DNA from: Escherichia coli
GTDB taxonomy: Bacteria > Pseudomonadota > Gammaproteobacteria > Enterobacterales > Enterobacteriaceae
Direction: 5' to 3' (one strand)
NCBI RefSeq assembly: GCF_002854065.1
Contig: NZ_CP024147.1
DNA length: 64,000 bases
Positions 4,739 to 53,063 of the stretch are shown here, in pieces. A model generated the notes under the pieces. The model ran no database searches, was not told the DNA's origin, and saw only the letters and a program-made list of their open reading frames with translations. The translations under genes were made by a program, and so were the position numbers. Within the stretch, counting starts at the first letter, position 1; the number at the start of each line of letters is the position of its first letter.

Positions 4739-4951
4739 TCAAAGATAAACTACATGAGAAGAACGCCTTAACTTGCTCAAATGGATTGTGTTACAACAGT
4801 CTTGGTAACGTTTGCTATTGGCACATAGCGGGTCTTCAACCCAGTTAGCTCGCCCATTCTGTGCAAGTAGTGGACAATGAATGAAAAGATATTGGGTCGG
4901 ATTAACCTTGCGAAGGCCATCTAAGTCTGTGACGAACATTTCTTCAAGCAT
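4739..4951 (-). CDS. small hypothetical Cys/His-containing protein (70 aa), possibly spurious or a gene remnant
   Basis: ORF lies 134 nt downstream of the helicase gene on the same strand. TGAGGG sits 8 nt upstream of the ATG. Sequence contains HCP...C...CC..H. No family recognised. Confidence 0.3.
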   Translation of the reverse strand: MLEEMFVTDLDGLRKVNPTQYLFIHCPLLAQNGRANWVEDPLCANSKRYQDCCNTIHLSKLRRSSHVVYL

Positions 4952-5085
4952 CTGAGGCCCTCAGCTCGCACCTAGAATTTTAATTTTGATGCATTTTGCC
5001 TTAGCTTGAGCATTGGAATGTGGCCTGATAACCGGTGTTTTCTTTTACTGGCCGTCCACAGACTCGATGACGCATTTATTCCCGA

Positions 5086-10105: not shown

Positions 10106-10348
10106 TATCGCAATTTTCTCTGCGAATGATGAACTTGTTGTTAATGATGTGTTGATTGTGGACACGTCCTTTCCATTGCGTTTTATCATCAACAAAATCA
10201 GGAGAAGCATCATTATCTGTCAGACGAGCGCTCACAAGGCCGGGCTGCTCATAAAAAATAGTTCCGATGTTGTCCATACCCTGTCCACCCCTTCCTTTAA
10301 AGTAATCATTATTAATTCAGAGAGTTAACTTCTCAGGAGAAATCTTTC

Positions 10349-11065
10349 ATGACGCTTCAGGAGCGGCGACATGACCGGCTTGCCGTCAGGTTGTCGTTGA
10401 TTATCAGCCGCCTGGTGTCCGGTGAAACTCTGTTTATTCGCAAACTGGCAACTGAATTCGGGGTGTCAGAGCGCACGTTACGTCGTGACTTTCGGGAACG
10501 TCTGATGTATCTCGACCTGGATTATTACCAGGGGCAGTGCAGTCTGCGCTCGGATATTCACAGTACGCGGCAGGAAATAGATATTCTGACCTTTGCTCAC
10601 CGTACGGGGCTGGCCGGGGTTTTCCCGGGCTTTGACCGGCGACTGGTCAGCAGCCTGCTGGACTGTGATGATCGACCCTGTCTGGTATGGCATCAGGACA
10701 GACCTCATCCCCCGGCAGGAAAGCTCTCCTTCTACAGGCTGGTCAGAGCTATTTCTGAATGTCAGCGCATCACCATTCTGACTGAAGGGGAGCGTCATGA
10801 GGCCGTTGCACCTTACCGGCTAATCGCTCTGGACGGTTACTGGTATCTGGTCGCTGAACATAACAGGCAATTACGTGTCTTCCGGCTGGATGAGATTCAT
10901 CTGGTAAGGCCATCGCGGGAAACATTTATTCGCAGTGAGCTTCTCTATCAGCTGTCGGAGGATAAACATTTTATCTCTGCCTTACCTCATTTCCGTTTTA
11001 TTCAGCAGTCGCTGAATTCATTTTCTCCCTCAGAAAGTCGGGGGCAATCCGGACAAACTGATTAG
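10349..11065 (+). CDS. HTH + WYL-domain transcriptional regulator (YfjR-like)
   Basis: N-terminal HTH ([19 protein letters not shown]). C-terminal WYL-like core ([28 protein letters not shown]). Confidence 0.8.
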
Positions 11066-11100
11066 AGATGGTCTCCATAATTAAATGTAAGGTTAATCTA

Positions 11101-11553
11101 ATGAAAGAATTGAAATTGTTGTCTTTACTGCCAGTCATATTGTTCCCCTTACTTATCGCAGGTAATGCTCACGCAGCACGTCCTTATAGCGGATTCCTGC
11201 CTGCAGCAGTGAATAATAAGAGTGGGAATATATTCTGGTGTGATGCCCACCGCCAGGTCAGAAAACTGTGTACAGCGACGGAAGTGGATTCAATGGGATG
11301 GTTTATTGTTGTTCGCTCGAAACCTTCCAGAGATTGTCCGGGGGGCCTTTGGGGGTGGATCACTCCCAGTAAAGACGATGTAGCAACAGGGTATACCATT
11401 ACGCCAGGTAAAGAATTCAATCTCACCATGAAGGATATGTGCAGTCCCGATATGAAAGTAACGTTCCGCCCGAATAAAAAGGACCCTCGTTATGACGATC
11501 TCGTCGGGATTTATGCAGGGAAAGAAGCTTTTCGCTACAAACAAATAAAATAA
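11101..11553 (+). CDS. small exported protein (signal peptide), island-encoded
   Basis: MKELKLLSLLPVILFPLLIAGNAHA signal-peptide-like N-terminus. The start was trimmed to M12 of the tracked ORF. Confidence 0.55.
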   Translation: MKELKLLSLLPVILFPLLIAGNAHAARPYSGFLPAAVNNKSGNIFWCDAHRQVRKLCTATEVDSMGWFIVVRSKPSRDCPGGLWGWITPSKDDVATGYTITPGKEFNLTMKDMCSPDMKVTFRPNKKDPRYDDLVGIYAGKEAFRYKQIK

Positions 11554-11624
11554 TCCAACTGTTTTTTCGTTACTTTATTGTTTTAAACAACAAAAGCCTT
11601 ATTACATGATTTGAGGACAACATT

Positions 11625-12098
11625 ATGCGACTGCCTTACGTAATATTTACATTAGCTATGCTGGCTTCTGTATCAACAGCACAGGCTATTCCCAATATGT
11701 GGACGAGTGGTTTTGGGATGGGCGTGACCGAATATATTATTACCAGCCCGGAGAAGGTGGTGTTTAATCTGAACTGTACTGGCAATCCGGATGCGCAGAA
11801 TATTCTGCAACACGGTGTTGATCTCACCCTGCCTGATGGAACATCAGTAAGCTCTCATGACGACGGAACGGAAATCACGGTCGTCATGGATAACAGTCAG
11901 TATCCGTTACCGTCATTCCTCGGCTGGCGAAACGGTGACAATGCCTGGGTGTCATTTATTGACGCCCTGAGCCAGTCTGCGAATTTTGATGTTTACGTCA
12001 ACGATAAAAAAGTCGGCACCTTCAGTCCGGGGCTGAAGAATACGCAGAAAGAGCTGTCTGACCTCAGTGAGTGCCGGACCACACACTACAGCGATTAG
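11625..12098 (+). CDS. small exported protein (signal peptide), island-encoded
   Basis: MRLPYVIFTLAMLASVSTAQA signal-peptide-like N-terminus. GAGGA lies upstream of the ATG. Confidence 0.55.
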   Translation: MRLPYVIFTLAMLASVSTAQAIPNMWTSGFGMGVTEYIITSPEKVVFNLNCTGNPDAQNILQHGVDLTLPDGTSVSSHDDGTEITVVMDNSQYPLPSFLGWRNGDNAWVSFIDALSQSANFDVYVNDKKVGTFSPGLKNTQKELSDLSECRTTHYSD

Positions 12099-12152
12099 TT
12101 ACTTACATTTCAGACCTCTCCAGCCCGCTACGCACCAACACCAGATAGCAAC

Positions 12153-12190
12153 AGGCCATGCTCCTTCGGGAACATGGCCTTTTTTGTTTT
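12153..12190 (+). terminator. rho-independent terminator
   Basis: AGGCCATG...CATGGCCT stem with a TTCG-containing loop, followed by TTTTTTGTTTTT. Confidence 0.6.
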
Positions 12191-12218
12191 TATTTGATTA
12201 TCAGATAAGGAGTTAGCT

Positions 12219-13040
12219 ATGCGACTAGCCAGCCGCTTTGGCCGTATAAACCAGATACGCCGTGACCGGCCTCTGACCCACGAAGAGCTGATGAGTCATG
12301 TACCCAGCGTGTTCGGGAGTGACAAGCATGAATCTCGTTCAGACAGGTACACCTACATCCCGACCATCACCATCCTCGAAAGCCTGCAGCGGGAAGGCTT
12401 TGAGCCGTTCTTTGCCTGCCAGACAAAAGTTCGCGACCAGAGCAAGCGGGAGCACACCAAGCACATGCTTCGACTGCGTCGCTCCGGGCAACTGACCGGG
12501 CATCAGGTGCCGGAAATCATTCTACTTAACAGCCATGACGGCTCATCAAGCTACCAGATGCTGCCGGGCCTGTTTCGTGGCGTCTGTACCAACGGCCTGG
12601 TCTGCGGTCAGTCATTCGGAGAAGTGCGGGTACCGCATAAAGGGAATGTTGTCGAGAAGGTGATTGAAGGGGCTTACGAAGTGCTCGGTGTGTTTGACCG
12701 GGTGGAGGAGAAGCGCGATGCAATGCAGTCACTGGCACTGCCAGAACCAGCCCGTAACGCCCTGGCGAATGCCGCGCTGAAGTATCGCTTTGGTGAAGAC
12801 CACCAGCCGGTCACGGTATCGCAGTTGCTGACCCCACGTCGCCGGGAGGACTACAGCGATGACCTGTGGACCGTATACCAGCGCGTGCAGGAGAACCTGA
12901 TGAAAGGAGGTCTGTCAGGGCGAACCGCTCAGGGGAAAAGCAGCCGCACCCGTGCTGTTATCGGCATTGACGGCGATGTGAAACTCAATCGCGCCCTGTG
13001 GATTATGGCAGAAAACATGCTCGAATTTTTCGGGCGTTAA
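12219..13040 (+). CDS. DUF932 protein (YfjQ/YafZ family)
   Basis: 273 aa. Near-collinear similarity to K-12 YafZ/YfjQ as recalled (ERYTYIPTITILE, HTKHMLRLRR, PEIILLNSHDGSSSYQM, FGEVRVPHKG). Confidence 0.85.
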   Translation: MRLASRFGRINQIRRDRPLTHEELMSHVPSVFGSDKHESRSDRYTYIPTITILESLQREGFEPFFACQTKVRDQSKREHTKHMLRLRRSGQLTGHQVPEIILLNSHDGSSSYQMLPGLFRGVCTNGLVCGQSFGEVRVPHKGNVVEKVIEGAYEVLGVFDRVEEKRDAMQSLALPEPARNALANAALKYRFGEDHQPVTVSQLLTPRRREDYSDDLWTVYQRVQENLMKGGLSGRTAQGKSSRTRAVIGIDGDVKLNRALWIMAENMLEFFGR

Positions 13041-13070
13041 ACAACCGTTCCGGCATAAGGAGATAGTTTA

Positions 13071-13511
13071 ATGGATACCCACAACCCTGAGTTTGCTGAG
13101 CAGGCAGCAATTACTGCCTCGGTAGTCCCTGACGAGTTACGTATCGGCTTCTGGCCAAAGCGCTTTGGATCTATCCCACAATGGATAACCCTTGAGCCCC
13201 AAATATTTGGCTGGATGGATCGTCTGTGCGCTGATTACAGCGGCGGCGCCTGGAGCTTTTACACACTCAGCAACGGCGGCGCATTTATGGCTCCGGAGCC
13301 CGACGGTGAGAAGTGGACGTTGTTCAACCCGATGAATGGAAACGATGCGGAGATGAGCGGAGAGGCTGCCGGTATAGCGGCCTGCCTGATGGCATACAGC
13401 CACCACGCTTGTCGCACCGAATGTGACGCGATGACTGAGCACTATTATCGCTTACGTGACTACGCGCTAAACCATCCGGAATGCAGCGCCATTATGTATC
13501 TAATCGACTGA
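13071..13511 (+). CDS. antirestriction protein (YfjX/YafX/KlcA-like family)
   Basis: FWPKRFGSIPQWITLEPQIFGWMDRLCADYSGGAWSFYTLSNGGAFMAPEPD matches the CP4 prophage antirestriction paralogs. Confidence 0.8.
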   Translation: MDTHNPEFAEQAAITASVVPDELRIGFWPKRFGSIPQWITLEPQIFGWMDRLCADYSGGAWSFYTLSNGGAFMAPEPDGEKWTLFNPMNGNDAEMSGEAAGIAACLMAYSHHACRTECDAMTEHYYRLRDYALNHPECSAIMYLID

Positions 13512-13523
13512 GGAATACCTGAC

Positions 13524-14066
13524 ATGAATATCGCATTATCCCCGGTATCATCGCAGCCTGAACTCTTTCCGCTGGCGGTTATGGCCCAGCATAGTTGCCT
13601 GCTCCCCGCGACCTCCGGATTGACACCTTATGCCCAACGGACCATTCGACGTGCTATCAACCTGCTGGATAAATATCTGCGCCAGCCCGGCATGTCCTTT
13701 ACCTCAAGCACGGCTGCCCGTGACTGGCTTCGGTTACAGCTGGCAGGACAAGAACGGGAAGTGTTTATGGTGCTCTATCTCGATAACCAGCACCGTTTAC
13801 TGGAGAGTGAAACGCTATTTGCCGGTTCGGTTAACCATGTCCAGGTCCATCCCCGTGAGGTGGTGAAGTCAGCGCTTCGCTTCAATGCTGCTGCTGTTGT
13901 GCTGGCGCATAACCATCCATCCGGTGATCCGGAGCCCAGCCAATGTGACCGCAACATTACGGGCAGGCTTAAAGAAGCGCTGGCACTGGTTGATGTGAAC
14001 ACTCTCGATCATCTGGTTATCGGTTCAGATGGAATTGTGTCGTTTGCAGAGCGAGGCTGGATATGA
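13524..14066 (+). CDS. RadC-like JAB/MPN domain protein (YkfG/YfjY/YeeS family)
   Basis: JAMM motif HNHPSGDPEPS. Overall similarity to YkfG. The true start may be the internal Met at 13581. Confidence 0.8.
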   Translation: MNIALSPVSSQPELFPLAVMAQHSCLLPATSGLTPYAQRTIRRAINLLDKYLRQPGMSFTSSTAARDWLRLQLAGQEREVFMVLYLDNQHRLLESETLFAGSVNHVQVHPREVVKSALRFNAAAVVLAHNHPSGDPEPSQCDRNITGRLKEALALVDVNTLDHLVIGSDGIVSFAERGWI

Positions 14067-14076
14067 GGGCACTTCA

Positions 14077-14418
14077 ATGAAATCTACTGACTCAGAGAAC
14101 GATTCATTTCTCAAGTGGGGTCTGAATCGTAATGTGACACCTTGCTTTGGCGCTCGTCTGGTACAGGAGGGAAACCGGCTGCACTATCTGGCTGACCGGG
14201 CCAGTATCACCGGTAAGTTCAGCGAAGCAGAATGTCTTAAGCTGGATATGGCATTCCCGCATTTTATTAGCCAGATGGAATCGATGCTGACTACTGGTGA
14301 AATGAATCCTCGCCATGCCCACTGTGTCACCCTGTACCACAATGGTTTCACCTGCGAAGCCGATACCCTTGGCAGTTGCGGCTACGTATACATCGCCGTT
14401 TACTCCACCCATCGTTAA
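14077..14418 (+). CDS. CbeA/YfjZ/YafW-family type IV antitoxin
   Basis: [29 protein letters not shown]...[33 protein letters not shown] parallels K-12 CbeA (YeeU). The start was trimmed to M17 of the tracked ORF. Confidence 0.85.
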
Positions 14419-14438
14419 CTACTTTCACAAGAGCAAAT

Positions 14439-14780
14439 ATGAAAACTCTACCTGCAACAAATCCGCAGGCGGCGAAGCTATGTCTGTCGCCCGTGGCTGT
14501 CTGGCAAATGCTGCTTGCACGCCTGCTGGAACAACATTATGGCCTGACACTCAACGACACGCCATTCAGTGATGAAACGGTAATTCAGCAACATATCGAT
14601 GCCGGTATATCTTTGGCCGATGCCGTTAATTTTCTGGTGGAAAAGTACGGGCTGGTTCGTATTGATCGCAGGGGATTCGACTGGCAAGAACAGTCCCCAT
14701 ATCTGCGGGCAGTCGATATTCTGCGGGCGCGACAGGCAACTGGTTTATTGAAAAGAAATCGTATTAGCGCGGCACGGTGA
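14439..14780 (+). CDS. CbtA/YkfI/YpjF-family toxin
   Basis: [46 protein letters not shown]... matches the CbtA family. It lies directly downstream of the antitoxin gene. Confidence 0.85.
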
Positions 14781-14845
14781 ATATTGGGAATAGCCTTCCT
14801 GATTCACACTGCAGCTTTCCTTACTTATTTAATTTACTCATTCCA

Positions 14846-14880
14846 AAAAGCACCTGCCGATGCTGGTTGGTGCTTTTACT
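14846..14880 (+). terminator. rho-independent terminator after the toxin gene
   Basis: AAAAGCACC (14846-14854) pairs with GGTGCTTTT (14869-14877), followed by a T-rich tail. Confidence 0.5.
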
Positions 14881-15043
14881 TATATGGACGAAATATCATG
14901 CAAATAGAAGCTGTAATTTTAACTGGGCACATTATCGCAAGTACAATCCGGGAATGCTGGGCCGTCGTTGTTGATGGTTTTGACGCATGCGGCGAACAAG
15001 CTTATGATCCAGCTTAATTTCTTTTCCTCATGAAGGGACGGGT

Positions 15044-16051
15044 ATGGGCAACAGAATGTGGATGATTCGCGGTGACGGCGGCAAGCTCTATGACGATTTT
15101 CGCGATAAGCAAATTGTAGGCATCGGTTGGTCTCAGCTGGCTCCATTAGTCAAACCCGGCCTGTCCCGAGCCCAGTTACTCGCCTTATACCAGGAGGCAG
15201 ATCCCTTAACAAAGCTGGGAACAGCCCGTTCTGGTGCATCGCAGGTCTGGCGTTTTGTGAATGAGATCCAAAAGGGTGATTGGGTTATTACCTATTCGCC
15301 AGCCAACCGTACTTATTTGCTAGGCAAAGTCACATCCGACTTCCAATATCATCCTGAATGGGTGGAAGAGGGGATGGGGATCGCTCGGCAGGTTAAATGG
15401 AATACTCAAGAAATCGACCGCGATAGACTGTCTGTTGCTACCAAAAACACATTGGGTTCTACGCTGACGGTTTTTCAGCTTCCAGAATATGCGCTAGAAG
15501 AGCTTTTGCAGGATAAGAAACCCACTATAGATGTAATTACTCAGAATCCAGTTGCAATGGATGAAGATGAGGTCGTTTCTGATCCGCTTCGCGATATGGA
15601 AATGCTGGCGTTTGAGGGTATCAAAGATCGTATTAACTCTCTTGATTGGGACGAGATGCAAAATCTTGTTGCCGGAGTTTTACGCAGTATGGGCTATAAA
15701 ACGCAGGTTTCACCTGCGGGAGCCGATCGGGGTAAAGACATCATTGCTTCACCTGATGGGTTCGGTTTTGAAAATCCGCGTATTATCGTTGAGGTAAAGC
15801 ACCGCAGGGAACAGATGGGAAGCCAACAGATACGCAGCTTTATCGGCGGTCGCCATAAAGACGATCGCGGGCTTTATGTCAGTACAGGGGGTTTTACGAA
15901 AGATGCTCGATATGAAGCCGACCGTTCGACGATACCACTGACGCTCTGGACACTTGATGATCTCGTCCGTGCGCTTATTGAGAACTACGAACAAGTTGAT
16001 ATCGAGACTAAACTTTTGGTGCCTCTGAAGAAAACTTTCCTGCCTGCCTGA
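15044..16051 (+). CDS. Mrr-catalytic-domain (PD-(D/E)xK) restriction endonuclease with a distinct, possibly PUA/EVE-like, N-terminal domain
   Basis: C-terminal GADRGKDIIA...RIIVEVKHRRE...LYVSTGGFTKDA gives a D...ExK core and the Mrr-type TGGF/SxxA tail. The N-terminal 150 aa (MWMIRG..IVGIGWS..GDWVITYSP..YLLGKVTS..ARQVKW) is unlike the E. coli Mrr N-terminus. AAGGGA SD is present. Confidence 0.75.
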   Translation: MGNRMWMIRGDGGKLYDDFRDKQIVGIGWSQLAPLVKPGLSRAQLLALYQEADPLTKLGTARSGASQVWRFVNEIQKGDWVITYSPANRTYLLGKVTSDFQYHPEWVEEGMGIARQVKWNTQEIDRDRLSVATKNTLGSTLTVFQLPEYALEELLQDKKPTIDVITQNPVAMDEDEVVSDPLRDMEMLAFEGIKDRINSLDWDEMQNLVAGVLRSMGYKTQVSPAGADRGKDIIASPDGFGFENPRIIVEVKHRREQMGSQQIRSFIGGRHKDDRGLYVSTGGFTKDARYEADRSTIPLTLWTLDDLVRALIENYEQVDIETKLLVPLKKTFLPA

Positions 16052-17014: not shown

Positions 17015-17665
17015 ATGAATAAACTCCCTGATCATCTTCCGCGGCGGTATATCATCGAAGCTATCCATTTATGGGATGCGGGAGAAACTCATCAGTTCCA
17101 GCCTGCGCGGTTGTATGAGATTGAATATCATGGCCGACGTTACCCCTCGAAGGCGATTGCTGGCATCGCAGCGACATTGATGACGGGGACGCAATTTACC
17201 CCTGCGGATTTCACCGGCGGAATAAAATCTAAATGTGTCAAGCTACTCATAGAGCAGGGATTTCATATTCATCTGGATAAAGCCGCTGCGGCTCCCATAG
17301 CCGACGTTCTGTTCCCGGATGAGTTGCCGTCGCAGGAGACATACCTTGAAGGTGCGGCGATAAAGGTGACAGTAAACCGCTATGAACGCGATAAAAAGGC
17401 CCGAGATAAAGCGGTCGAACATCATGGATGCCAGTGCAACGTATGCGGTGTTGATCTGGTGAAGATCTATGGTGATATCGCTGAAGGCTTTATCCATGTG
17501 CATCACCTGGTGCCGCTGTCAGCCATTAAAGAGGATTACCAGCTGGATCCAGTTAATGATTTGCTGCCTGTGTACCCTAATTGCCATGCGATGTTGCACC
17601 GACGCAAACCACCGTTTACGCCGGAGCAGTTAAAAGCGCTGATGGATGCGAATAAATCAAATTAA
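17015..17665 (+). CDS. HNH endonuclease with an N-terminal putative DNA-reader domain (type IV restriction-like)
   Basis: C-terminal HNH region is CQCNVCGV...FIHVHHLVPLS...NDLLPVYPNCHAMLH. The N-terminal part, YEIEYHGRRYPSKAIAGIAA, resembles reader domains of McrA/McrB-type enzymes. Confidence 0.75.
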   Translation: MNKLPDHLPRRYIIEAIHLWDAGETHQFQPARLYEIEYHGRRYPSKAIAGIAATLMTGTQFTPADFTGGIKSKCVKLLIEQGFHIHLDKAAAAPIADVLFPDELPSQETYLEGAAIKVTVNRYERDKKARDKAVEHHGCQCNVCGVDLVKIYGDIAEGFIHVHHLVPLSAIKEDYQLDPVNDLLPVYPNCHAMLHRRKPPFTPEQLKALMDANKSN

Positions 17666-17672
17666 TGAACGC

Positions 17673-18653
17673 TCACCTTTCGCGCCAAAACTGCAAAATT
17701 GCTTCTACAAACTTGTCAGAAATAATCCCCCGACGGGCTGCCGTGCTGAAATGACTGCTTCGCAGTGCCGTCGTCCAGTTCTCCGGTGACCGGTACGCTG
17801 AACCGTAATATCCCGTGCTTAAATCGTCCGGGTCTTCATCAGGCGCGTTCGTCAGTCCTCTTTCACCTTGTTGCTGGAAGTCGACGAAAATAATATTGGC
17901 TAAAACATTATTTTGATAATTGCCATAAATAACTTCATACGCATGAGGGAAATTTTCTTTCCAGTACCAGGTGGTATCGCCGCAAAACCACGGTGCGTCA
18001 GTAATATTATTAAGCTGAGAATGGTATTGTTTTAGATCCCTACGAAAGGCTTCAACCATATGATTAAAGTGTTGAGGGTGTGACGCGTAGTCACTGGTCA
18101 TTAAGTCAAATTCGCCTTGCATCCAGCATACGCCGAGGAATTTGTTATGCGGATTTTTTGCCAGTGCGGCTCGCGTTCTGCTGACTAAATCCTGGTATAG
18201 CGGAGTATCCGTTCCCCAACGACAAGCATCATGGCTGGCTCCGTGCCGTTCTGAATATGTTCCTTCGCTGCCCGCGGTAAAAGCCGATCCGCCACGGCAA
18301 CACGGAACGATGAGAACCCCTGCATTATCAGGAATAAAGGGCAGTAATTTCCGTGCTATATGCAGTGCCTGGCCAACGGTGCCGTACTGTGTTTGATGAT
18401 TCGTTGCCAGAGGATGGTGATAACCCTGCATATCCTGAACATCGTGTGGGCAGTGAGTCAGTGGAATAATGTCGTTAAAGTGACATGACGGGCCTCCGGG
18501 ATGCGTATGCGCAAATCTCGCTAATTGTTTAATTCTGGGATGAGGCGCATCTTCCCTGTCCGGTAATGGCAGTCCTTCGCCATACGCCATGGCATTAGAC
18601 TGACCAGCAACGGTAAGAATATAGTAATAATCAGGCGATATTATTGCGTTCAT
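17673..18653 (-). CDS. nanS: 9-O-acetyl-N-acetylneuraminate esterase
   Basis: Near-identical to K-12 NanS (YjhS) as recalled, 326 aa from MNAIISPDYYY. Confidence 0.9.
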   Translation of the reverse strand: MNAIISPDYYYILTVAGQSNAMAYGEGLPLPDREDAPHPRIKQLARFAHTHPGGPSCHFNDIIPLTHCPHDVQDMQGYHHPLATNHQTQYGTVGQALHIARKLLPFIPDNAGVLIVPCCRGGSAFTAGSEGTYSERHGASHDACRWGTDTPLYQDLVSRTRAALAKNPHNKFLGVCWMQGEFDLMTSDYASHPQHFNHMVEAFRRDLKQYHSQLNNITDAPWFCGDTTWYWKENFPHAYEVIYGNYQNNVLANIIFVDFQQQGERGLTNAPDEDPDDLSTGYYGSAYRSPENWTTALRSSHFSTAARRGIISDKFVEAILQFWRER

Positions 18654-18717
18654 ATAAATTTCGCGTAATTGAAATGACAAATTGATAGCAGGGCCCCTTT
18701 ACCGGGGCCCTGAAGCG

Positions 18718-19824
18718 TTAGTTTTGTACTGTGACTTTATTATCCTTCACAGAAATTAAAACTGAATCCATCACTGCTTTGCCGCCTGCAGTTTCACCGC
18801 CAATAATTAATAAACTATTATTCCAGGGCAATGATACTCCGTAGGCCCGACCTTGCGATAATTCACCCGATTTATCCCATTTCCCGTTATACCAAAGATG
18901 AATATCAACGCTATATGATTTTTTCAGGCCTTCATGCGCATAGTTCTTACCGTTCTGGTAATTTTCTCGTGAACCTTTGAATCCGGCCCCTCCAGCAAAT
19001 ATAAGAGAATCATTGCTTATCCCCGCAAAACCGCCAGCGACGCCATCTGGTGATGAGACGGGATCAAGCTTATTCCATTTTAAATTATCACCGGTGAAGT
19101 CAAGTTCAAATACGGCATCCGTTCGCAATCCTGGTTTGGCTTCGCCATTAATAAGCCAGGTTTTATCACCTTTATTCACAACCGCCGCACCAGCCGTTCC
19201 GTACCAGGGAGATTCGCCAGCGTAACTCCATTGCTGTGTTGAGGGATCAAAAGACAACAGAAACTTATTGAAGAAATAATCTTCTGCTTTTTTGTCAAAA
19301 TAGTAGGCGTTGATTTTATCTATAGCGGTTGAATCTTTTCCAGCTTCGTTGAGATCTTCAAAATAGCCATTGAAGATATTCTGGTTAACACCGCCAGTAA
19401 CATAAGCCTTGCCGTTGTGTACAAAAGTCACATGGCCCGCCATGCCCATCGGCGCGTGCGACATCAATTTAACCCAGCTATTGGTTTTGGGGTTGTATTT
19501 GTGTACGTCATTAAATACCTGAGTCAAGCCCTCGCTGTTTTTGCCAATGCCGCCAAACACATACAGATTGCCATCAATAAATGCAGAGGTTGCTTGATCT
19601 CTCGGTCCGCCAGGGAATGCAGCTAACGCTGTCCATCTTTTATCTTTGGCCTGTGTATCCAGCTTGTACCATGCCGTACCTGCGCTACCTAAACCAATGT
19701 AGACAGTGTCGTTATCAATTGCTCCGGTACCACTTTTAAATGGCACAGGAGTTTCCGGTAATACAGACGCGTTTGCGGCAAATGAAGCCATTATGATAGT
19801 AAGCGCCGTTATTGTTTTATTCAT
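18718..19824 (-). CDS. nanM: N-acetylneuraminate mutarotase (Kelch repeat)
   Basis: Near-identical to K-12 NanM (YjhT), 368 aa from MNKTITAL. Confidence 0.9.
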   Translation of the reverse strand: MNKTITALTIIMASFAANASVLPETPVPFKSGTGAIDNDTVYIGLGSAGTAWYKLDTQAKDKRWTALAAFPGGPRDQATSAFIDGNLYVFGGIGKNSEGLTQVFNDVHKYNPKTNSWVKLMSHAPMGMAGHVTFVHNGKAYVTGGVNQNIFNGYFEDLNEAGKDSTAIDKINAYYFDKKAEDYFFNKFLLSFDPSTQQWSYAGESPWYGTAGAAVVNKGDKTWLINGEAKPGLRTDAVFELDFTGDNLKWNKLDPVSSPDGVAGGFAGISNDSLIFAGGAGFKGSRENYQNGKNYAHEGLKKSYSVDIHLWYNGKWDKSGELSQGRAYGVSLPWNNSLLIIGGETAGGKAVMDSVLISVKDNKVTVQN

Positions 19825-19843
19825 TGTGACTGTCTCCTGTCTA

Positions 19844-20560
19844 CTACAGTTTAAATGACACACCAATGCGATAACTGTTTTCCGATAAATTATCTCTGCC
19901 GTTGTAAACACCCTGACGGTCAAGGTAGTCATATTCTATGTATGGCGTAATATCGGGCGTCATATGGTATTGTAGAACAAATGCATTTTCCGTCGCCCAT
20001 TTCTTATGGTTTGCATAGCGATAATCGTTCTGTTTACTGTATAGCGTCGTTTGCCATGCGAAGGTGAAATCACTATTAATATGGTAAGTGACATATCCAT
20101 CCCAACGATGAACGTTATCACGAGACATATCACCAGATAAGTCTTGTTGTCGGTAAGCTTTCCAGTCGTAACGATAGCGAATGCCAAAATTAAGATCTTT
20201 TGTCGCGTCCCAGGACAGTTTTACGTAGGGTCCGTAGCGTGTGCCATTGCTGCTAAAATGCGTTAACATTCCCGGGCGCACCGTCCATTGATCATCAAGT
20301 TTAATCGCGTAATTAACTTCAACCTGAACATCATTGAGTGCGGCATTTTCCTTTTTATTATCATGAATGGTATTCCAGGTATTACTTTCCATGCTTGCCC
20401 ACCATCCATTTTGCCATCCCTCACTGACTTTGAGTCGAGTCTCATAGGCGTGGCTTCCACTACGATATCCACCACGTACGTCCAGTGTCGCAGCCTGAGA
20501 AATTAATGGGGACGAAAAGCACAGTAATAATACGCTAGAAAGTATTTTAGCCTTTTTCAT
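19844..20560 (-). CDS. nanC: N-acetylneuraminic acid outer-membrane channel
   Basis: Near-identical to K-12 NanC (YjhA), 238 aa from MKKAKILS. Confidence 0.9.
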   Translation of the reverse strand: MKKAKILSSVLLLCFSSPLISQAATLDVRGGYRSGSHAYETRLKVSEGWQNGWWASMESNTWNTIHDNKKENAALNDVQVEVNYAIKLDDQWTVRPGMLTHFSSNGTRYGPYVKLSWDATKDLNFGIRYRYDWKAYRQQDLSGDMSRDNVHRWDGYVTYHINSDFTFAWQTTLYSKQNDYRYANHKKWATENAFVLQYHMTPDITPYIEYDYLDRQGVYNGRDNLSENSYRIGVSFKL

Positions 20561-20985
20561 AAATTTCACTCATTTGTAGGATACAGAAAGCAATACAAAG
20601 CCCGCATAAACAATTAGCATTTATGTTGTGTAATATTTTTTTGCCAGGCTTATAGTGTCTTTGGCAACCGGTAGCTGTATTTTATATTTTTTGTATAATA
20701 TCTCCTGTGAAAAATCTCTTTCCACATTATTTAAATAAACAGAGGGCCAGATTAAATACCTGAGTATAAAATCTCTGCTGATGTTTAATTGATTTGAATT
20801 TTCGTAAGCTATATCGCTTACTCAATCCATTTTACCCAGAGTCATAAAATAGAGTGTCTGTTGATCTCATTTTCATATTCCTTTCAGACTGAAGTGCGTT
20901 TTCATCACCCGATGAGAAAGAACTGAAGTGATGTTTGCCATAGATTACGAGATGCCCAGTCTCATTGACTATCGCGGTGCACCTT

Positions 20986-21005
20986 TATACCTGTTATACC
21001 AGATC
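20986..21005. promoter_or_regulatory. NanR operator-like GGTATA repeats with adjacent Dam GATC site (nanC/fimB regulatory region)
   Basis: TATACC is present at 20986-20991 and at 20995-21000 (GGTATA on the - strand). GATC follows at 21002-21005. This matches the described NanR site in the nanC-fimB intergenic region. Confidence 0.5.
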
Positions 21006-22013
21006 AAAAATCACGCAATCCATACAACAAAACCAGATTTGCAATTCGTGTCACAAAATATGTCGATCTTTTCCTAAGAAGCAGATGCCATGTGAAGCCA
21101 GACGAACACTTGCATTGGTCTTCAAAAACTAAAGGTTTTCTTTTAACAATCTGTTTTGTAAATAATTTATTTAGAATCTAAACAAAGAAAGCTTTGCAAG
21201 CTAACTCAGTGAGCTTGGTGAAAATAAGTGTTTACCCGCCATCAGGCTGAGTATAATTCTCATCATGAAATATGTTTCTTGGTTTGTGGCTTGTAACTGG
21301 TCACTCCTGATGTCGATCTGGAGAGGCTTGTTGATGTTGGTGTTTTCAGGATGATGTTTCACTTAGTTTGTTTGCCGTATCGCCCGGCGAATAGCTGTGA
21401 TTGAGGAAGGTTTAAGTCGTAGTGACCAAAGCCATAGTTACCAACGGATGTAGATGAAAAAGCGTCGCCTGCGTTCCCCCATATCTCCAGGATAAAAGGG
21501 AATGTAACAATCTCATGGCCTAAGCTGACGAACCAGGCAGGAATAATCGCTAGGGATCTAAGAATTAGCATGATAATAGCCACTAAGAAATTACTGCGTT
21601 CCATGAAATAGCCATTTTGTGGCAAATGCAGTTGACTAATAATGTCATATGTGAGACGGCTAGTTGAACGAATATTAAATTTTGCTGAATTTTTTATGTT
21701 GATTTTACTTGTTACAGAACATATCACATGATATATAGATAAGATTAGTTGCATTAATGATGAGGGTTATTATTCGATTCGTATCAGATTTATAAATATA
21801 TAAAGGTACATAGCATGCAAGAGCATGGCGTTTGTATGGCAAAGTTATTATAAGTAACTATCGCTACTCCATTTAAGTTCACTCAGAAGAACTGGTCCAC
21901 TTACGTTAGTTATTAAGCAAACGTTCGCTTTTATAAACATAATCAGGATTAAAATGTTGGATTATTGCTAACCCAGCACAGCTAGTGCGCGTCTGTAATT
22001 ATAAGGGAAAACG

Positions 22014-22616
22014 ATGAAGAATAAGGCTGATAACAAAAAAAGGAACTTCCTGACCCATAGTGAAATCGAATCACTCCTTAAAGCAGCAAATACCGGGCCT
22101 CATGCAGCACGTAATTATTGTCTGACTTTGCTTTGTTTTATTCATGGTTTCCGGGCGAGTGAAATTTGTCGATTGAGGATTTCGGATATTGATCTTAAGG
22201 CAAAGTGTATCTATATCCATCGATTAAAAAAAGGCTTTTCAACAACGCACCCGCTATTGAACAAAGAAGTTCAGGCTTTAAAAAACTGGTTGAGTATCCG
22301 TACTTCGTACCCGCATGCTGAGAGCGAATGGGTATTTTTATCGCGTAAGGGGAATCCGCTTTCTCGGCAACAGTTTTACCATATTATCTCGACTTCCGGT
22401 GGTAATGCCGGGTTGTCACTGGAGATTCATCCGCACATGTTACGCCATTCGTGTGGTTTTGCTTTGGCGAATATGGGAATAGATACGCGACTTATCCAGG
22501 ATTATCTTGGGCATCGCAATATTCGTCATACTGTCTGGTATACCGCCAGCAATGCAGGGCGTTTTTACGGCATCTGGGATAGGGCCAGAGGACGACAGCG
22601 TCACGCTGTTTTATAG
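22014..22616 (+). CDS. fimB: type 1 fimbriae recombinase FimB (tyrosine recombinase)
   Basis: 200 aa, matches K-12 FimB. Contains HMLRHSCG...LGHRNIRHTVWY. Confidence 0.95.
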   Translation: MKNKADNKKRNFLTHSEIESLLKAANTGPHAARNYCLTLLCFIHGFRASEICRLRISDIDLKAKCIYIHRLKKGFSTTHPLLNKEVQALKNWLSIRTSYPHAESEWVFLSRKGNPLSRQQFYHIISTSGGNAGLSLEIHPHMLRHSCGFALANMGIDTRLIQDYLGHRNIRHTVWYTASNAGRFYGIWDRARGRQRHAVL

Positions 22617-23092
22617 AGATAGTTGAGATACCAGGGATGGTGTTAAAAACTACATTATTCTTACGATATATCAAAAATGATTAACCATTTATTAATTGAT
22701 GTTATTGTAAGTGTGATTCTTAATTATAATAATAAACATTAAGTTAACCATATCCATACAAAATACAATGGTTTATGTTCTTCAAAATAAATAAACAAAA
22801 TCATTCATAAATTTACACATCACTTAAATTCATCTGTTTTCACATTTTTTCTTTATTTTTTAAGCAACTGGAAGTTAATCCACTGCAATCTATTGTTATA
22901 TTGAATCAAATCAATGAAAATAGATGTTATCACATCAGTGATATTTTATTTTTGTATGATATTTAATGTAATTGACTGATAGCCACATCACTTCGTGTGT
23001 GGTTATCTTTTTATCTATTGGGCTAATTTTGACCGATTGAGGTTTCCTATAGGTATTCATTCAAATATATCTCAGTCAGGAGTACTACTATT

Positions 23093-49053: not shown

Positions 49054-50286
49054 TCACCGCTCCTCCGCCAGCTCGGCAGCCTGATGTTGGCGCACGCGAT
49101 TAAGCAATCCGGCCAGGGTGAAAACGACGATAACGCCTGCCACAACGGCTAACAGATGAAACGGCAAGCGACCGCTGTTAAACCACAGCCAGCGGCCGAT
49201 TTCGACCGAGACAGACATCACCATCAGGATCACCATATTCAGCGATGCGGAGACGGTCCCTTTCGGTAAGTTATTGGAAAACAGCGTAAAGCGGAATAAG
49301 GTCGGGAAAATCAAACCAATCCCGAAAGCATACAGACTGGTGCCCAGCACCGACCACAGCCAGACGTGCGGTGACAGCAGATTGCCGATAATCAACAGCG
49401 CGAGGCCAACCAGTTGAAGGGGTACGGCACGCCAGATAAAGCGCGGTTCGGTCGGATCTTTAACGAAACGCGCCACGATGGCATTCGCGACAATCACCGC
49501 GCCGAACACCGGAACCTGTGTCCAGGCGAACTGCGAAGTTGTTAAGCCGCCCGCGTCGATCAGGATCACCGGCGAGACAGCCACCCAACTCATCATGGGG
49601 ATATAGCTTAAAGAGATGGTTGCTGCGCCAAAGAGGAACAGCCGATTGCAAAAGACATTACGAAAATCGCGCAAGACGCTTTTGGCGCTAAATGGAACCG
49701 CGCCGCGCTTCACCGTCTCTGGCATCGCCAGCAGTAAGCCAACAAATGAGATAAAACCCATAACCGCAATGATGGCAAAAAGGACTTTCCAGTGCACAAA
49801 GTGCATCAGAGCTGCGCCGGAAAGCGGGCCAATAATCGGCGCAATCAGTACGATGGAGGTGATAATCGCCATCAACTTGATCCCTTTTGTCTGTCCGAAC
49901 GCCTCCTGCACCGTGACATAACCAACGGTGGCAATAAAACAGATACTGGTGCCCTGAATTGCACGCGCGATAAGAAACTGTGTCATAGACGTTGTGAACA
50001 TTGTCGCAGCGCAGGCAAGGGTAAATATTAGCGCCCCGGTAATCAGCACCGGCCTGCGGCCAACCCTGTCGGAAAGCGGCCCCAGCAGCCACTGCAATGC
50101 CATGCCTCCAGCGAGATAGAGACTGACGGCAGCCGGGGCCAGACTGACATCGGCATTAAAATCACGGACCACATTAATGATCCCTGGCTGGATCAGGTCC
50201 GTCGACAGATACGCAGCAAAGTCATACAAAATCAACGCCATCGGGAAAAACAGCGTGGCGGCATGGCGGGCAAAAAAACGTGGCAT
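49054..50286 (-). CDS. mdtM: MFS multidrug efflux pump
   Basis: 410 aa from [14 protein letters not shown], matches K-12 MdtM (YjiO). Confidence 0.95.
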
Positions 50287-50600
50287 AACAAACAACTCCT
50301 TGTCCGGAGAACCCCAATGGGGAAAACGAAATTCAATACCGTCGGTAATGACGAAAGGCAGGCGAGAAGGACAAATGTACTGAATTTCATGTAATCAACC
50401 ACACTGCCTGCGAATACACAGACAGAGAAATACCTTCTGACTCCAGGTCAGAATGTATAACGATTACAAATAGTCATCAGCACATTACACCTCTTTAATT
50501 GATGGCTTGCATAGAAAATATACACCTTAAGTGTAATTAAAATTTGGTAATGCTGCCAACTTACTGATTTAGTGTATGATGGTGATTTTAAGGTGCTTGC

Positions 50601-50876
50601 GTGGCTTCCATTTCCATCAGATGTCCTTCCTGCTCCACTACTGAAGGCGTGGTGCGTAACGGCAAAAGCACTGCCGGACATCAGCGCTATCTCTGCTCTC
50701 ATTGCCGTAAAACATGGCAACTACAGTTCACTTACACCGCCTCTCAGCCCGGTACGCACCAGAAAATCATTGATATGGCCATGAATGGCGTCGGATGTCG
50801 CGCCAGTGCACGCATTATGGGCGTTGGCCTCAACACGGTTTTACGTCACTTAAAAAACTCAGGCCGCAGTCGGTAA
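50601..50876 (+). CDS. insA: IS1 InsA (variant)
   Basis: 91 aa, [43 protein letters not shown]... Confidence 0.85.
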
Positions 50877-51298
50877 CCTCGCGCATACAACCGGGCAGTG
50901 ATGTGATTGTCTGCGCTGAAATGGACGAACAGTGGGGCTACGTCGGTGCTAAATCACGTCAGCGCTGGCTGTTTTACGCGTATGACAGGATACGGAGGAC
51001 GGTTGTGGCGCACGTCTTCGGTGAACGCACTCTGGCCACACTGGAGCGTCTTCTGAGCCTGCTGTCGGCCTTTGAGGTCGTAGTATAGATGACGGATGGC
51101 TGGCCGCTGTATGAATCACGCCTGAAGGGAAAGCTGCACGTTATCAGCAAGCGTTACACTCAGCGCATTGAGCGACATAACCTGAATCTGAGACAACATC
51201 TGGCAAGGCTGGGACGGAAGTCACTGTCGTTCTCAAAATCGGTGGAGCTGCATGACAAGGTCATCGGGCATTATCTGAACATAAAACACTATCAGTAA
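50795..51298 (+). pseudogene. insB: IS1 insB frame interrupted by a nonsense codon
   Basis: TAG at 51086-51088 (FEVVV*MTDGW) where the fimH copy has TGG ([11 protein letters not shown]). Confidence 0.85.
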
Positions 51299-51496
51299 GT
51301 TGGAGTCATTACCCGACAGCGAGGTGTTTAGTGTGCCATGTCAGGCGAGAAATTCTATTGGATGAATCAAGTCCAACTTACTCATTGTCAATTTCATGGT
51401 TGATTATTCGAAACGTGATGCTATTTCCAACATCAACGCTATAATTGCAGAATAATTGTAGATACATTTTTGTATATACAATTAGGGATGGCAATT

Positions 51497-51784
51497 ATGC
51501 CAATGGAGTTTGAATGGGATGAAAACAAGGCCAAAAGTAATCGGGTGAAACATGGCATCCGCTTTGAAGATGCGGTGTTATTGTTTGATGATCCACAACA
51601 TTTGTCACAGCAAGAACGCATAGAAAACGGTGAGTATCGCTGGCAGACAATCGGCCTGGTTTACGGCATCGTGGTTATTCTGGTTGCGCATACCATCCGT
51701 TTCGAAAGCGGAAATGAAATTATTCGAATCATCAGTGCACGAAAAGCAGATCGTAAAGAGAGGAATCGCTATGAGCATGGTTAA
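51497..51784 (+). CDS. brnT: BrnT-family toxin (DUF497 ribonuclease)
   Basis: MPMEFEWDENKAKSNRVKHGIRFEDAVLLFDDP matches the BrnT/DUF497 N-terminal signature. TAGGGA SD is present. Confidence 0.8.
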   Translation: MPMEFEWDENKAKSNRVKHGIRFEDAVLLFDDPQHLSQQERIENGEYRWQTIGLVYGIVVILVAHTIRFESGNEIIRIISARKADRKERNRYEHG

Positions 51785-52073
51785 ACATAAACGAGGGACC
51801 TCCTCTACACTCGATGTGCAGCATGAGGCCGAACTGAAGGCGCTGACGAATAAATCCGACGAAGATATTGATTACAGTGATATCCCACCTTCCAGCGATG
51901 AGCAATGGTCTAACGCCGAACGCGGTAAGTTTTATCGGCCATTGAAAACTCAGGCTTCGGTGCGTATTGATGCTGATGTGATGGAATGGTTGAAGCGACC
52001 AGGTAAAGGCTATCAAACTCGCCTGAACGCAATTTTACGTGAAGCGATGCTGCGCGATCAGAACAAAAAATAA
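51771..52073 (+). CDS. brnA: BrnA-family antitoxin
   Basis: DEDIDYSDIPP...FYRPLKTQASVRIDADVMEWLKRPGKGYQTRLNAILREAM matches the BrnA (DUF4415-like) pattern. Its ATG overlaps the end of brnT by 14 nt. Confidence 0.8.
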   Translation: MSMVKHKRGTSSTLDVQHEAELKALTNKSDEDIDYSDIPPSSDEQWSNAERGKFYRPLKTQASVRIDADVMEWLKRPGKGYQTRLNAILREAMLRDQNKK

Positions 52074-52106
52074 TTCAGGCCGCCACATGGCGGCCATCAT
52101 CCAAAA

Positions 52107-53063
52107 TTACTTCCTCAACCCCGCAAACGCTGCCCGAATCTCTTCCTCCGGCAACTGAATCCCGATAAACACCATTGTGCTATGCGGTTTTTCATCGCCC
52201 CACGGGCGGTCCCAGTCGGCGCTGTAGAGGCGCTGGACGCCCTGGAACAGCAGGCGGTTAGGTTCGCCGTCAATCCACAGCATCCCTTTGTAACGCAGCA
52301 GTTTATCTGCCGATTCCAGAAGCAGGTTTTCCATCACCCGGGAAACTTCGCTGATATCTACCGGGTAATCCAGTTCCACCACAATCGACGAAATATCGTT
52401 TTGTTTATCCGCGATAAAGTGGAAACGCGGTTTGGTGCTGACGACGTTCTCTTCCAGCATAAAACCGTTGGTGTTGAACAGCAGGCCCAGGTCGATGTCG
52501 CCGTGGGTGACGGTGTAGACCGGTGCACGGGCGTTGATGCGCGCCAGGCGTTCACGCAGTTTTTCTGCTTCGCCTGCGACGTCGGTTTTGGTCAGCAGAA
52601 TACGGTCGGCGTAGCCAACCTGGGACTGGGCGATGGTGAACTGGTTCATCTGCTCGTCGGCATGTACCGCATCCACCAGCGCAATCACACCGTCCAGCAG
52701 GTAACGCTGGCATAAAATCTCATGGGAGAAAAAGGTCTGAATAATCGGGCCGGGATCGGCCATGCCGGTGCATTCAATGACCAGACGGTCAAACTGAATA
52801 TTGCCCTTGTCGAGATTATCCAGCAGGTCGAGTAGTGCGTCTTCCAGCTCGTTGGAGCGCGAACAGCAGATGCAGCCGTTGGTCAGCGTTTTGATCTGCG
52901 TGGCGCGGTCGCCAATTAGTTGATCATCAACGGAGACTTCGCCGAATTCGTTTTCAATCACGGCAATCTTGTAGCCGTGTTGTTCGTTAAGAATATGGCG
53001 CAGCAGGGTGGTTTTTCCCGCGCCTAAAAAACCGGTGAGTAGGGTAACTGCAATCGGGTTCAT
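52107..53063 (-). CDS. yjiA: COG0523 P-loop GTPase / metal chaperone
   Basis: 318 aa from MNPIAVTLLTGFLGAGKTT, matches K-12 YjiA. Confidence 0.95.
   Translation of the reverse strand: MNPIAVTLLTGFLGAGKTTLLRHILNEQHGYKIAVIENEFGEVSVDDQLIGDRATQIKTLTNGCICCSRSNELEDALLDLLDNLDKGNIQFDRLVIECTGMADPGPIIQTFFSHEILCQRYLLDGVIALVDAVHADEQMNQFTIAQSQVGYADRILLTKTDVAGEAEKLRERLARINARAPVYTVTHGDIDLGLLFNTNGFMLEENVVSTKPRFHFIADKQNDISSIVVELDYPVDISEVSRVMENLLLESADKLLRYKGMLWIDGEPNRLLFQGVQRLYSADWDRPWGDEKPHSTMVFIGIQLPEEEIRAAFAGLRK

What the first reader, a model, noticed from the sequence alone, without database searches (positions are those of the whole stretch)
50287..52106. The hsd-mcr-mrr immigration control region is missing; its place is taken by an IS1 without target duplication plus a brnTA pair
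As I recall K-12, mdtM and yjiA are separated by about 25 kb (yjiP..yjiV, mcrBC, symE, hsdSMR, mrr). Here they are only 1.8 kb apart. The interval contains about 250 bp upstream of mdtM, a 768-bp IS1 variant, about 180 bp of AT-rich DNA, and brnT-brnA. The IS1 flanks (TTAAAATTT versus CGACAGCGA) are not a direct repeat. That is the signature expected after an IS1-mediated adjacent deletion or recombination between two IS1 copies. The strain would therefore lack the classical type I and type IV restriction systems. It carries instead Gabija, an Mrr-cat fusion and an HNH enzyme in the leuX island.
Basis: partly seen in the sequence, partly recalled or inferred. Interest (0 to 1): 0.6.

Follow-up and report, generated by a model that had tools for sequence, protein, structure and literature searches.

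The report
Old IS1 deletion emptied restriction island
In this E. coli, an old insertion-sequence-associated deletion removed about 11 kb of restriction genes from a well-known variable defence island; one in five complete E. coli genomes share the same scar, so it is real but ordinary.

Summary
mdtM and yjiA are 1,820 bp apart. The interval holds 259 bp of mdtM upstream DNA, a 768-bp IS1 with no target duplication, a 183-bp spacer and brnT-brnA.

An IS1-associated deletion is strongly supported. Relative to full-length relatives, IS1 replaces exactly 11.3 kb: rpn, yjiR, yjiS, symE, a non-EcoKI Type I hsdMSR and an Mrr-cat endonuclease gene. No IS1-less short allele exists in 5,426 complete E. 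coli genomes.

Four points need correcting:
- The ancestor was not the K-12 arrangement, and nothing shows mcrBC was ever there.
- brnTA did not take the island's place. It is the resident right edge of that alternative haplotype.
- The event is old and common, not strain-specific. The IS1|brnT junction is in 1,112 of 5,426 genomes (20%), with two different left junctions: 450 like the window and 664 carrying a yghX-yghW fragment fused to mdtM.
- The element is the IS1F isoform, whose insB carries the same nonsense codon as K-12's IS1F.

The K-12 gap is 19.4 kb, not 25 kb. Loss of restriction genes genome-wide cannot be tested from this window. Interest is low.

The parts
49054..50286 (-). mdtM (multidrug efflux MFS transporter), the left anchor gene. 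It is intact with its normal N-terminus MPRFFARHA...
   Evidence: ORF list. RefSeq annotation of the collinear locus L001. N-terminus translated.
50287..50545 (.). 259 bp of native mdtM upstream DNA, retained. It ends in the all-A/T 9-mer TTAAAATTT (50537..50545) that abuts the IS1 left end.
   Evidence: Homology with K-12, O157 and full-length haplotypes runs to 50545 or 50546 and stops there.
50546..51313 (+). IS1, isoform IS1F, 768 bp. insA is at 50601..50876 (91 aa, intact). The A6C frameshift motif is present. The insB frame is interrupted by TAG at 51086..51088, where TGG (Trp) stands in other IS1 copies. There is no 9-bp target duplication.
   Evidence: It is 99.1% identical to K-12 IS1F, which carries the same stop, and 91% identical to IS1A/IS1B copies. 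RefSeq annotates the orthologous copy as 'IS1 family transposase; programmed frameshift; internal stop'.
51314..51496 (+). 183-bp spacer. This is the native intergenic DNA upstream of brnT. In full-length haplotypes the divergent Mrr_cat gene starts 14 bp to the left of 51314. It begins with CGACAGCGA.
   Evidence: Homology with L002, L003 and L004 begins exactly at 51314. The restriction endonuclease CDS ends at locus position 11987 and the match starts at 12001.
51497..51784 (+). brnT, the type II toxin (95 aa).
   Evidence: PF04365 BrnT_toxin, E 4e-24, 85 bits against a cut-off of 34.5. Annotated as BrnT family toxin in relatives.
51771..52073 (+). brnA, the antitoxin (100 aa). It overlaps brnT by 14 bp.
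   Evidence: PF14384 BrnA_antitoxin, E 2e-17, 63.8 bits against a cut-off of 26.1.
52078..52095 (.). G+C-rich hairpin GGCCGCCATGTGGCGGCC between the convergent brnA and yjiA genes. It looks like a terminator.
   Evidence: Terminator-like site in the pattern scan. This is a pattern match only.
52107..53063 (-). yjiA (COG0523 GTPase), the right anchor gene. Sequence divergence between carriers of the scar rises abruptly from 52131 onwards.
   Evidence: Annotation of L001. Positions of differences.

Best explanation
The interval is an old, fixed deletion allele of the E. coli immigration control region (ICR), the variable defence island bounded by yjiN/mdtM and yjiA.

The ancestor carried the gene order mdtM - rpn - yjiR - yjiS - symE - hsdR - hsdS - hsdM (a Type I family other than EcoKI/IA) - a 388-aa Mrr_cat endonuclease - brnT - brnA - yjiA.

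Proposed steps, all inferred:
1. An IS1F element inserted 14 bp upstream of the Mrr_cat gene, in the intergenic DNA it shares with brnT.
2. Its left end then joined the all-A/T site TTAAAATTT, 259 bp upstream of mdtM. This was most likely intramolecular transposition, the classical IS1 'adjacent deletion'.
3. The intervening 11.3 kb were lost and no target duplication was left.

Because IS1F itself encodes a truncated InsB, the transposase would have come in trans from another IS1. The right-hand neighbour brnTA kept its own upstream DNA and mdtM kept 259 bp of its own.

The allele then spread and persisted. About 20% of complete genomes carry it, partly through homologous recombination into different yjiA backgrounds. 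A second rearrangement at the IS1 left end produced a more common sister allele.

The consequence is that this locus encodes no restriction enzyme, only the BrnTA toxin-antitoxin pair.
For: Shown:
- IS1 replaces 11.3 kb exactly, relative to three full-length loci.
- The flanks are not a duplication, while the window's other IS1 has a perfect 9-bp duplication.
- The short allele never occurs without IS1: 0 of 5,426 genomes.
- The IS1|brnT junction is in 1,112 genomes. Two left junctions share it: 450 of the window type and 664 with a yghX'-yghW' fragment. This argues that the right junction is the older, anchored one and the left end the rearranging one.
- IS1 plus spacer plus brnTA are nearly identical across both classes. 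Spacer and brnTA differ by at most 2 substitutions (locus L006 also has an 11-bp spacer deletion), and IS1 by 1-8 nt. yjiA differs by about 3% from 52131 onwards. This indicates a single origin.
- An independent IS1 insertion in this same spot with the full island still present exists in strain Ec-91, so such intermediates do occur.

Established knowledge: IS1 promotes adjacent deletions and prefers A/T-rich targets.
Against: - Neither predicted intermediate was found in 5,426 genomes. These are the Mrr_cat gene-CGACAGCGA-IS1F junction with the island intact and the IS1F-TTAAAATTT-GCGG junction.
- IS1F has a nonsense codon in insB that K-12's IS1F shares. It could not supply its own full transposase, and IS1 transposase is known to act preferentially in cis.
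- The final sequence is equally well explained by RecA recombination between two direct IS1F copies.
- The sampled full-length haplotypes differ from the window's brnTA by about 1.4-2.7%, so the true parent haplotype was not sampled.
Confidence: 0.55

Rival explanations
1. Homologous (RecA-dependent) recombination between two directly repeated IS1F copies. One copy had inserted upstream of mdtM with duplication TTAAAATTT, the other upstream of brnT with duplication CGACAGCGA. Recombination deleted everything between them and left one hybrid IS1F.
For: - It gives exactly the observed sequence: no duplication, and each flank a plausible original target.
- It needs no transposase at the deletion step, which fits the insB nonsense codon.
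- IS1 is abundant in these genomes, with a median of about 10 matching places per genome.
Against: - It needs two IS1F insertions within 11 kb in the same orientation.
- Neither single insertion survives in 5,426 genomes.
- The two left-junction classes sharing one right junction are explained more simply by repeated activity at one end of a single anchored element.
Confidence: 0.3
2. The IS1 was first inserted upstream of mdtM (left-anchored) and deleted rightwards up to brnT.
For: TTAAAATTT is a typical A/T-rich IS1 target and could equally be the original insertion site.
Against: The left junction is the variable one (450 against 664 genomes, with unrelated left flanks), whereas the right junction is common to all 1,112. 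A left-anchored element predicts the opposite pattern. No IS1F-TTAAAATTT-GCGG intermediate exists.
Confidence: 0.08
3. One reading: a recent, strain-specific IS1 deletion of a K-12-like yjiP..mcrBC-symE-hsdSMR-mrr region, with brnTA arriving in its place.
For: mdtM and yjiA are the same anchor genes as in K-12, and the K-12 genes are indeed absent.
Against: - K-12 has mrr, not brnTA, next to yjiA.
- DNA to the right of IS1 is continuous with a different haplotype whose HsdM is 24% identical to EcoKI HsdM.
- The scar is in 1,112 genomes. The best matches differ from the window by only about 5 nt over 2.6-4.4 kb, so it is neither recent nor strain-specific.
Confidence: 0.03
4. The short mdtM-brnTA-yjiA arrangement is a natural IS-free variant of this hypervariable locus, into which an IS1 later inserted.
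For: The island is known to vary like a cassette. Only 36% of enterobacterial ICR loci hold a Type I system (PMC12707154).
Against: The IS1-less junction is found in 0 of 5,426 genomes. A simple insertion would have left a 9-bp duplication, as the fimH IS1 in this window did.
Confidence: 0.02

Closest known systems
E. coli immigration control region (ICR, hotspot 36), described by Sibley & Raleigh 2004 and the Raleigh EcoSal Plus 2025 review (PMC12707154)
   Same: Same chromosomal site and the same anchor genes (yjiN/mdtM on one side, yjiA-yjiX-btsT on the other). brnAT is listed there as one of three toxin-antitoxin pairs that accompany the island. Restriction-free versions are known, for example E. 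coli C, W and Crooks.
   Different: Here the framework genes rpn(yjiP)-yjiR-yjiS are gone too, and an IS1F marks the deletion. I did not find this exact allele described in the papers I could search. ATCC 8739 (Crooks) has a different arrangement, with a DUF262 gene and an IS3 in hsdM.
IS1-mediated adjacent deletion (classical IS1 behaviour; from established knowledge)
   Same: One IS1 copy remains. There is no target duplication. One flank is the original and the other a new A/T-rich target. The intervening DNA is lost precisely from the IS end.
   Different: The element is IS1F with a nonsense codon in insB, so the transposase would have had to act in trans. The event was not observed, only inferred from its end product.
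IS1F of E. coli K-12 (between fecI and yjhU)
   Same: 99.1% identical over all 768 bp, with the same TGG->TAG change in insB.
   Different: Different chromosomal site. It differs by 7 nt.
BrnTA type II toxin-antitoxin system (first characterised in Brucella abortus; the attribution is from my own knowledge)
   Same: Both Pfam domains are matched end to end. The toxin gene comes first, the two genes overlap, and the proteins are small (95 and 100 aa).
   Different: No functional data here. PADLOC has no defence model that matches it.

Membership tests
IS1 family insertion sequence (IS1F isoform) | About 768 bp with imperfect terminal inverted repeats of about 23 bp | tested here: met
   50546..51313 is 768 bp. 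The left end is GGTAATGCTGCCAACTTACTGAT and the reverse complement of the right end is GGTAATGACTCCAACTTACTGAT.
IS1 family insertion sequence (IS1F isoform) | insA and insB frames joined by an A6C -1 frameshift site to give the InsAB' transposase | tested here: inconclusive
   insA is intact (91 aa) and TTAAAAAACTC is present. The insB frame has TAG at 51086..51088, removing its last 69 codons. K-12 IS1F has the same stop.
IS1 family insertion sequence (IS1F isoform) | High nucleotide identity to a named reference copy | tested here: met
   99.1% to K-12 IS1F and about 91% to IS1A/IS1B.
IS1 family insertion sequence (IS1F isoform) | 9-bp (sometimes 8-bp) target site duplication after simple insertion | tested here: not met
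   The flanks are TTAAAATTT and CGACAGCGA. This is expected if a deletion or recombination followed insertion. It does not bear on the identity of the element.
IS-mediated adjacent deletion (event type) | The IS exactly replaces a contiguous segment that is present in relatives | tested here: met
   L003:657..12000 (11.3 kb) is replaced. Both junctions were aligned to the base.
IS-mediated adjacent deletion (event type) | A precursor exists with the IS at one of the two sites, its duplication, and the segment intact | tested here: not met
   0 of 5,426 genomes for either site. Only an unrelated IS1 about 200 bp away in Ec-91.
IS-mediated adjacent deletion (event type) | Catalysed by transposase rather than by homologous recombination between two copies | not testable with these tools
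   The two routes give the same final sequence.
BrnT/BrnA type II toxin-antitoxin | BrnT_toxin (PF04365) and BrnA_antitoxin (PF14384) domains in adjacent small genes | tested here: met
   85.1 and 63.8 bits, above cut-offs of 34.5 and 26.1. The genes overlap by 14 bp.
BrnT/BrnA type II toxin-antitoxin | Ribonuclease toxicity neutralised by the antitoxin | not testable with these tools
   Needs an experiment.
Immigration control region (ICR) | Variable segment between the conserved anchors yjiN/mdtM and yjiA | tested here: met
   yjiN, mdtM, yjiA, yjiX and btsT are all present and collinear with annotated relatives.
Immigration control region (ICR) | Encodes restriction or modification enzymes | tested here: not met
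   Only IS1F and brnTA lie between the anchors.

The most novel reading that the evidence does not exclude
The IS1F-brnTA 'emptied' island is not just a neutral scar. It may be a selected, recombining allele. It shows near-identity across carriers next to about 3% divergence in yjiA, is present in 20% of complete genomes, and appears among the listed hits in strains labelled ST167, NDM and ESBL. This could mean that losing the resident Type I and Mrr-cat enzymes was favoured, for example because it eases plasmid uptake. In addition, the sister allele's in-frame yghW'-'mdtM fusion may rewire expression of the MdtM efflux pump.
Probability: 0.12. Interest if true: 0.35.

Novelty: already known. 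Interest (0 to 1): 0.12.

Why it matters
It matters only modestly. It shows that a large fraction of E. coli (about one in five complete genomes) carries no restriction enzyme at the classical hsd/mcr/mrr site, because of one ancient IS1F-associated deletion. It also shows that K-12 is a poor reference for what was lost. This is useful for annotating defence repertoires, and for anyone predicting transformation or phage-plating behaviour of these lineages. It does not reveal a new mechanism or system.

Tried and rejected
- I searched for an IS1-less short junction and for both duplication-bearing intermediates. None was found.
- I checked whether ATCC 8739 (Crooks), reported to have an IS-altered island (PMC3032704), carries this allele. 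It does not.
- I first read the insB stop as locus-specific decay. I rejected that because K-12's IS1F has the same stop.
- I tried to read Sibley & Raleigh 2004 (PMC373321). It is not held.
- Literature searches for this specific allele found nothing specific.
- I did not assign the lost Type I system to family IB or ID. Only 'not IA' is shown.
- Using strain 13P484A as an annotated proxy for the whole window failed upstream of about 27.9 kb, because its island differs there.
- Four family-scan calls failed on coordinates or on a pseudogene and were repeated.

Full report
**1. What is there**

Reading the sequence gives this layout:
- mdtM on the minus strand at 49054..50286.
- 259 bp of its upstream DNA at 50287..50545.
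- A 768-bp IS1 at 50546..51313, with insA then insB on the plus strand.
- A 183-bp spacer at 51314..51496.
- brnT at 51497..51784 and brnA at 51771..52073.
- A G+C-rich hairpin at 52078..52095.
- yjiA on the minus strand at 52107..53063.

The mdtM-yjiA gap is 1,820 bp. The nine bases on either side of IS1 are TTAAAATTT and CGACAGCGA, which are not a duplication. BrnT and BrnA match their Pfam families over the full domain and above the cut-offs.

A useful internal control is a second IS1 in the window, at 30226..30993 inside fimH. It has a perfect 9-bp duplication TAATTCGAG.

**2. How common it is**

The 2.6-kb arrangement was searched against 5,426 complete E. coli genomes.
- 1,005 genomes hold at least 80% of it in one place.
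- The IS1|brnT junction itself is in 1,112 genomes, or 20%.
- The best matches differ from the window by about 5 nt over 2.6-4.4 kb.

So this is an old allele shared by many strains, not a feature of this one. RefSeq annotates the orthologous locus as mdtM, an IS1 family transposase pseudogene ('programmed frameshift; internal stop'), BrnT, BrnA and yjiA.

**3. What was lost**

Many other genomes match the DNA to the right of IS1 starting exactly at window 51314. In three of them (p4A, MS7163 and ECOD1) the locus reads mdtM - rpn - yjiR - yjiS - symE - hsdR - hsdS - hsdM - 'restriction endonuclease' - brnT - brnA - yjiA. One or more of the restriction genes is itself disrupted in each of them. 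In p4A an IS1A interrupts hsdR, in ECOD1 only hsdR and hsdM fragments remain, and in MS7163 the endonuclease gene has an internal stop.

Base-level alignment shows these loci read ...TTAAAATTT|GCGGTTAATC... on the left and ...CCCTTAA|CGACAGCGAGG... on the right. The window has IS1 exactly in place of the 11.3 kb between those two points (L003:657..12000).

The lost endonuclease is a 388-aa Mrr_cat protein. It matches PADLOC models PDC-S02 and the Type IV methyl-directed enzyme. It shares 31% identity with K-12 Mrr, over the catalytic domain only. The lost HsdM is 24% identical to EcoKI HsdM, so the Type I system belongs to a family other than IA. I did not determine which.

K-12 has mrr, not brnTA, next to yjiA, and its mdtM-yjiA gap is 19.4 kb. 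Two conclusions follow. brnTA is the native right edge of an alternative island haplotype and not something that arrived with the deletion. And the ancestor was not K-12-like, so nothing shows that mcrBC was ever present. The Raleigh review of this island lists brnAT as one of three toxin-antitoxin pairs that accompany it. It also reports Type I systems in only 36% of enterobacterial loci (PMC12707154).

**4. Tests of the deletion idea**

A 220-bp query spanning the hypothetical IS1-less junction finds no match in 5,426 genomes.
- A simple later insertion is also excluded by the missing duplication.
- The two possible precursors were each sought with chimeric junction queries. These are IS1 with its duplication at the right site or at the left site, with the island still intact. 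Neither exists in the collection.
- Strain Ec-91 has an independent, intact IS1 of another isoform in the 5' end of brnT, with the full Type I and Mrr_cat genes present. So intermediates of this kind do arise here.

**5. Which end moved**

The window-type left junction (mdtM upstream|IS1) is in only 450 genomes. The other 664 genomes have the same IS1 and the same right junction. To the left of IS1 they carry about 270 bp copied from the unlinked yghX-yghW region. That fragment is fused in frame to mdtM, so MdtM starts MAGLKATHA... instead of MPRFFARHA....

The two classes sum to 1,114, which matches the 1,112 right junctions. One right junction with two unrelated left junctions argues that the IS1|brnT junction is the older, anchored one and that rearrangements happened at the left end.

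Across the two classes, the spacer and brnTA differ by at most 2 substitutions, apart from an 11-bp spacer deletion in locus L006, and IS1 differs by 1-8 nt. Divergence jumps to about 3% from window 52131, just inside yjiA. This points to a single origin of the IS1-brnTA unit, followed by recombination in the flanks. That fits the known high recombination around this island.

**6. The element**

The IS1 is 99.1% identical to K-12's IS1F (next to fecI/yjhU) and about 91% identical to IS1A/IS1B. Its insA is intact and the A6C frameshift site is present. The insB frame has TAG where other IS1 copies have TGG (Trp), at 51086..51088. That removes the last 69 codons.

K-12's IS1F has the same stop. 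The stop is therefore a trait of the isoform and not decay at this site. It follows that any transposase-driven step needed InsAB' from another IS1, acting in trans.

**7. Mechanism**

The best-supported account is as follows:
1. IS1F inserted 14 bp upstream of the Mrr_cat gene.
2. Its left end then attacked the all-A/T site TTAAAATTT upstream of mdtM.
3. The 11.3 kb in between were lost, leaving no duplication. This is the classical IS1 adjacent deletion.

What is shown is the exact replacement, the missing duplication, the absence of an IS1-less allele, the shared right junction and the single origin. What is inferred is the order of events and the enzyme.

The main rival is RecA recombination between two direct IS1F copies. 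It gives the same final sequence, needs no transposase and cannot be excluded. I put about 0.55 on right-anchored adjacent deletion and 0.3 on IS1-IS1 recombination. That some IS1-associated deletion of a non-K-12 island occurred I hold at above 0.9.

**8. Consequences**

This locus now encodes no restriction enzyme. The genes symE, yjiS, yjiR and rpn are also gone. brnTA keeps its upstream DNA and mdtM keeps 259 bp of its own.

Whether the strain lacks Type I or Type IV restriction altogether cannot be judged from 64 kb. The window itself encodes Gabija (GajA at 6890..8674 and GajB at 5086..7005). It also encodes another Mrr_cat protein at 15044..16051 and a weak, sub-threshold HNH match at 17015..17665. 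No tRNA gene lies in the window, so the 'leuX island' label rests on position only.

**9. Novelty**

The island, its cassette-like variation, restriction-free versions and IS1 deletions are all textbook. This allele is already annotated in more than a thousand RefSeq genomes. I found no paper that describes this exact scar. Crooks, reported as IS-altered, has a different arrangement. This is a correct but ordinary finding, and interest is low.

Noticed in passing
window 30226..30993: A second IS1 (IS1A/B-like, 91% identical to the ICR copy) is inserted inside fimH, with a perfect 9-bp target duplication TAATTCGAG. The type 1 fimbrial adhesin gene is therefore interrupted in this strain. Strain 13P484A has fimH intact at this point.
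   Followed up: partly
L005:3150..3430 and L006 (not in the window): A sister allele occurs in 664 of 5,426 genomes. It has the same IS1F and the same right junction. About 270 bp copied from the unlinked yghX-yghW region lie left of IS1. That fragment is fused in frame to mdtM through a short microhomology (CATGCCGCC), giving the N-terminus MAGLKATHA.... mdtM would then be driven by the yghW promoter. How this allele arose is unexplained. One possibility is illegitimate recombination anchored in IS1F.
   Followed up: partly
window 51086..51088; L011:533..1300: K-12's own IS1F (between fecI and yjhU) has the same insB TGG->TAG nonsense codon as this copy. A transposase-defective isoform therefore sits at two or more distinct sites, which implies mobilisation in trans or spread by recombination.
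   Followed up: partly
window 52074..52131: There is a sharp change in divergence among carriers of the scar. At most 2 substitutions separate them across the spacer and brnTA, plus an 11-bp spacer deletion in locus L006. From 52131 into yjiA-yjiX the divergence is about 3%. This looks like a recombination breakpoint at the brnA/yjiA boundary.
   Followed up: partly
L012 (strain Ec-91) 4381..5078: An independent, intact IS1 of another isoform sits in the 5' end of brnT, with the full Type I and Mrr_cat genes still present. It is a natural example of the kind of precursor proposed here.
   Followed up: partly
window 5086..8674: A Gabija pair is present: GajA at 6890..8674 and GajB at 5086..7005. 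Both match PADLOC models over nearly their full length (E 6e-234 and 2e-258).
   Followed up: partly
window 9230..16051: The gene content resembles a prophage remnant. It includes a YeeP-like GTPase, a WYL regulator, DUF932, a KlcA-type antirestriction protein (13071..13511), RadC, the CbeA/CbtA toxin-antitoxin pair (14029..14780), and a 335-aa Mrr_cat protein (15044..16051). An antirestriction gene thus sits near a restriction-type nuclease.
   Followed up: no
NZ_CP025842.1 (strain 720632), record positions 2397659..2404895: In this strain the two junctions of the scar lie 7 kb apart on opposite strands. That suggests a later inversion between IS1 copies.
   Followed up: no
L010 (ATCC 8739) 17583..23001: The Crooks strain has another version of the island: a DUF262 (GmrSD-like) gene next to yjiA, and an IS3 interrupting hsdM.
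   Followed up: no
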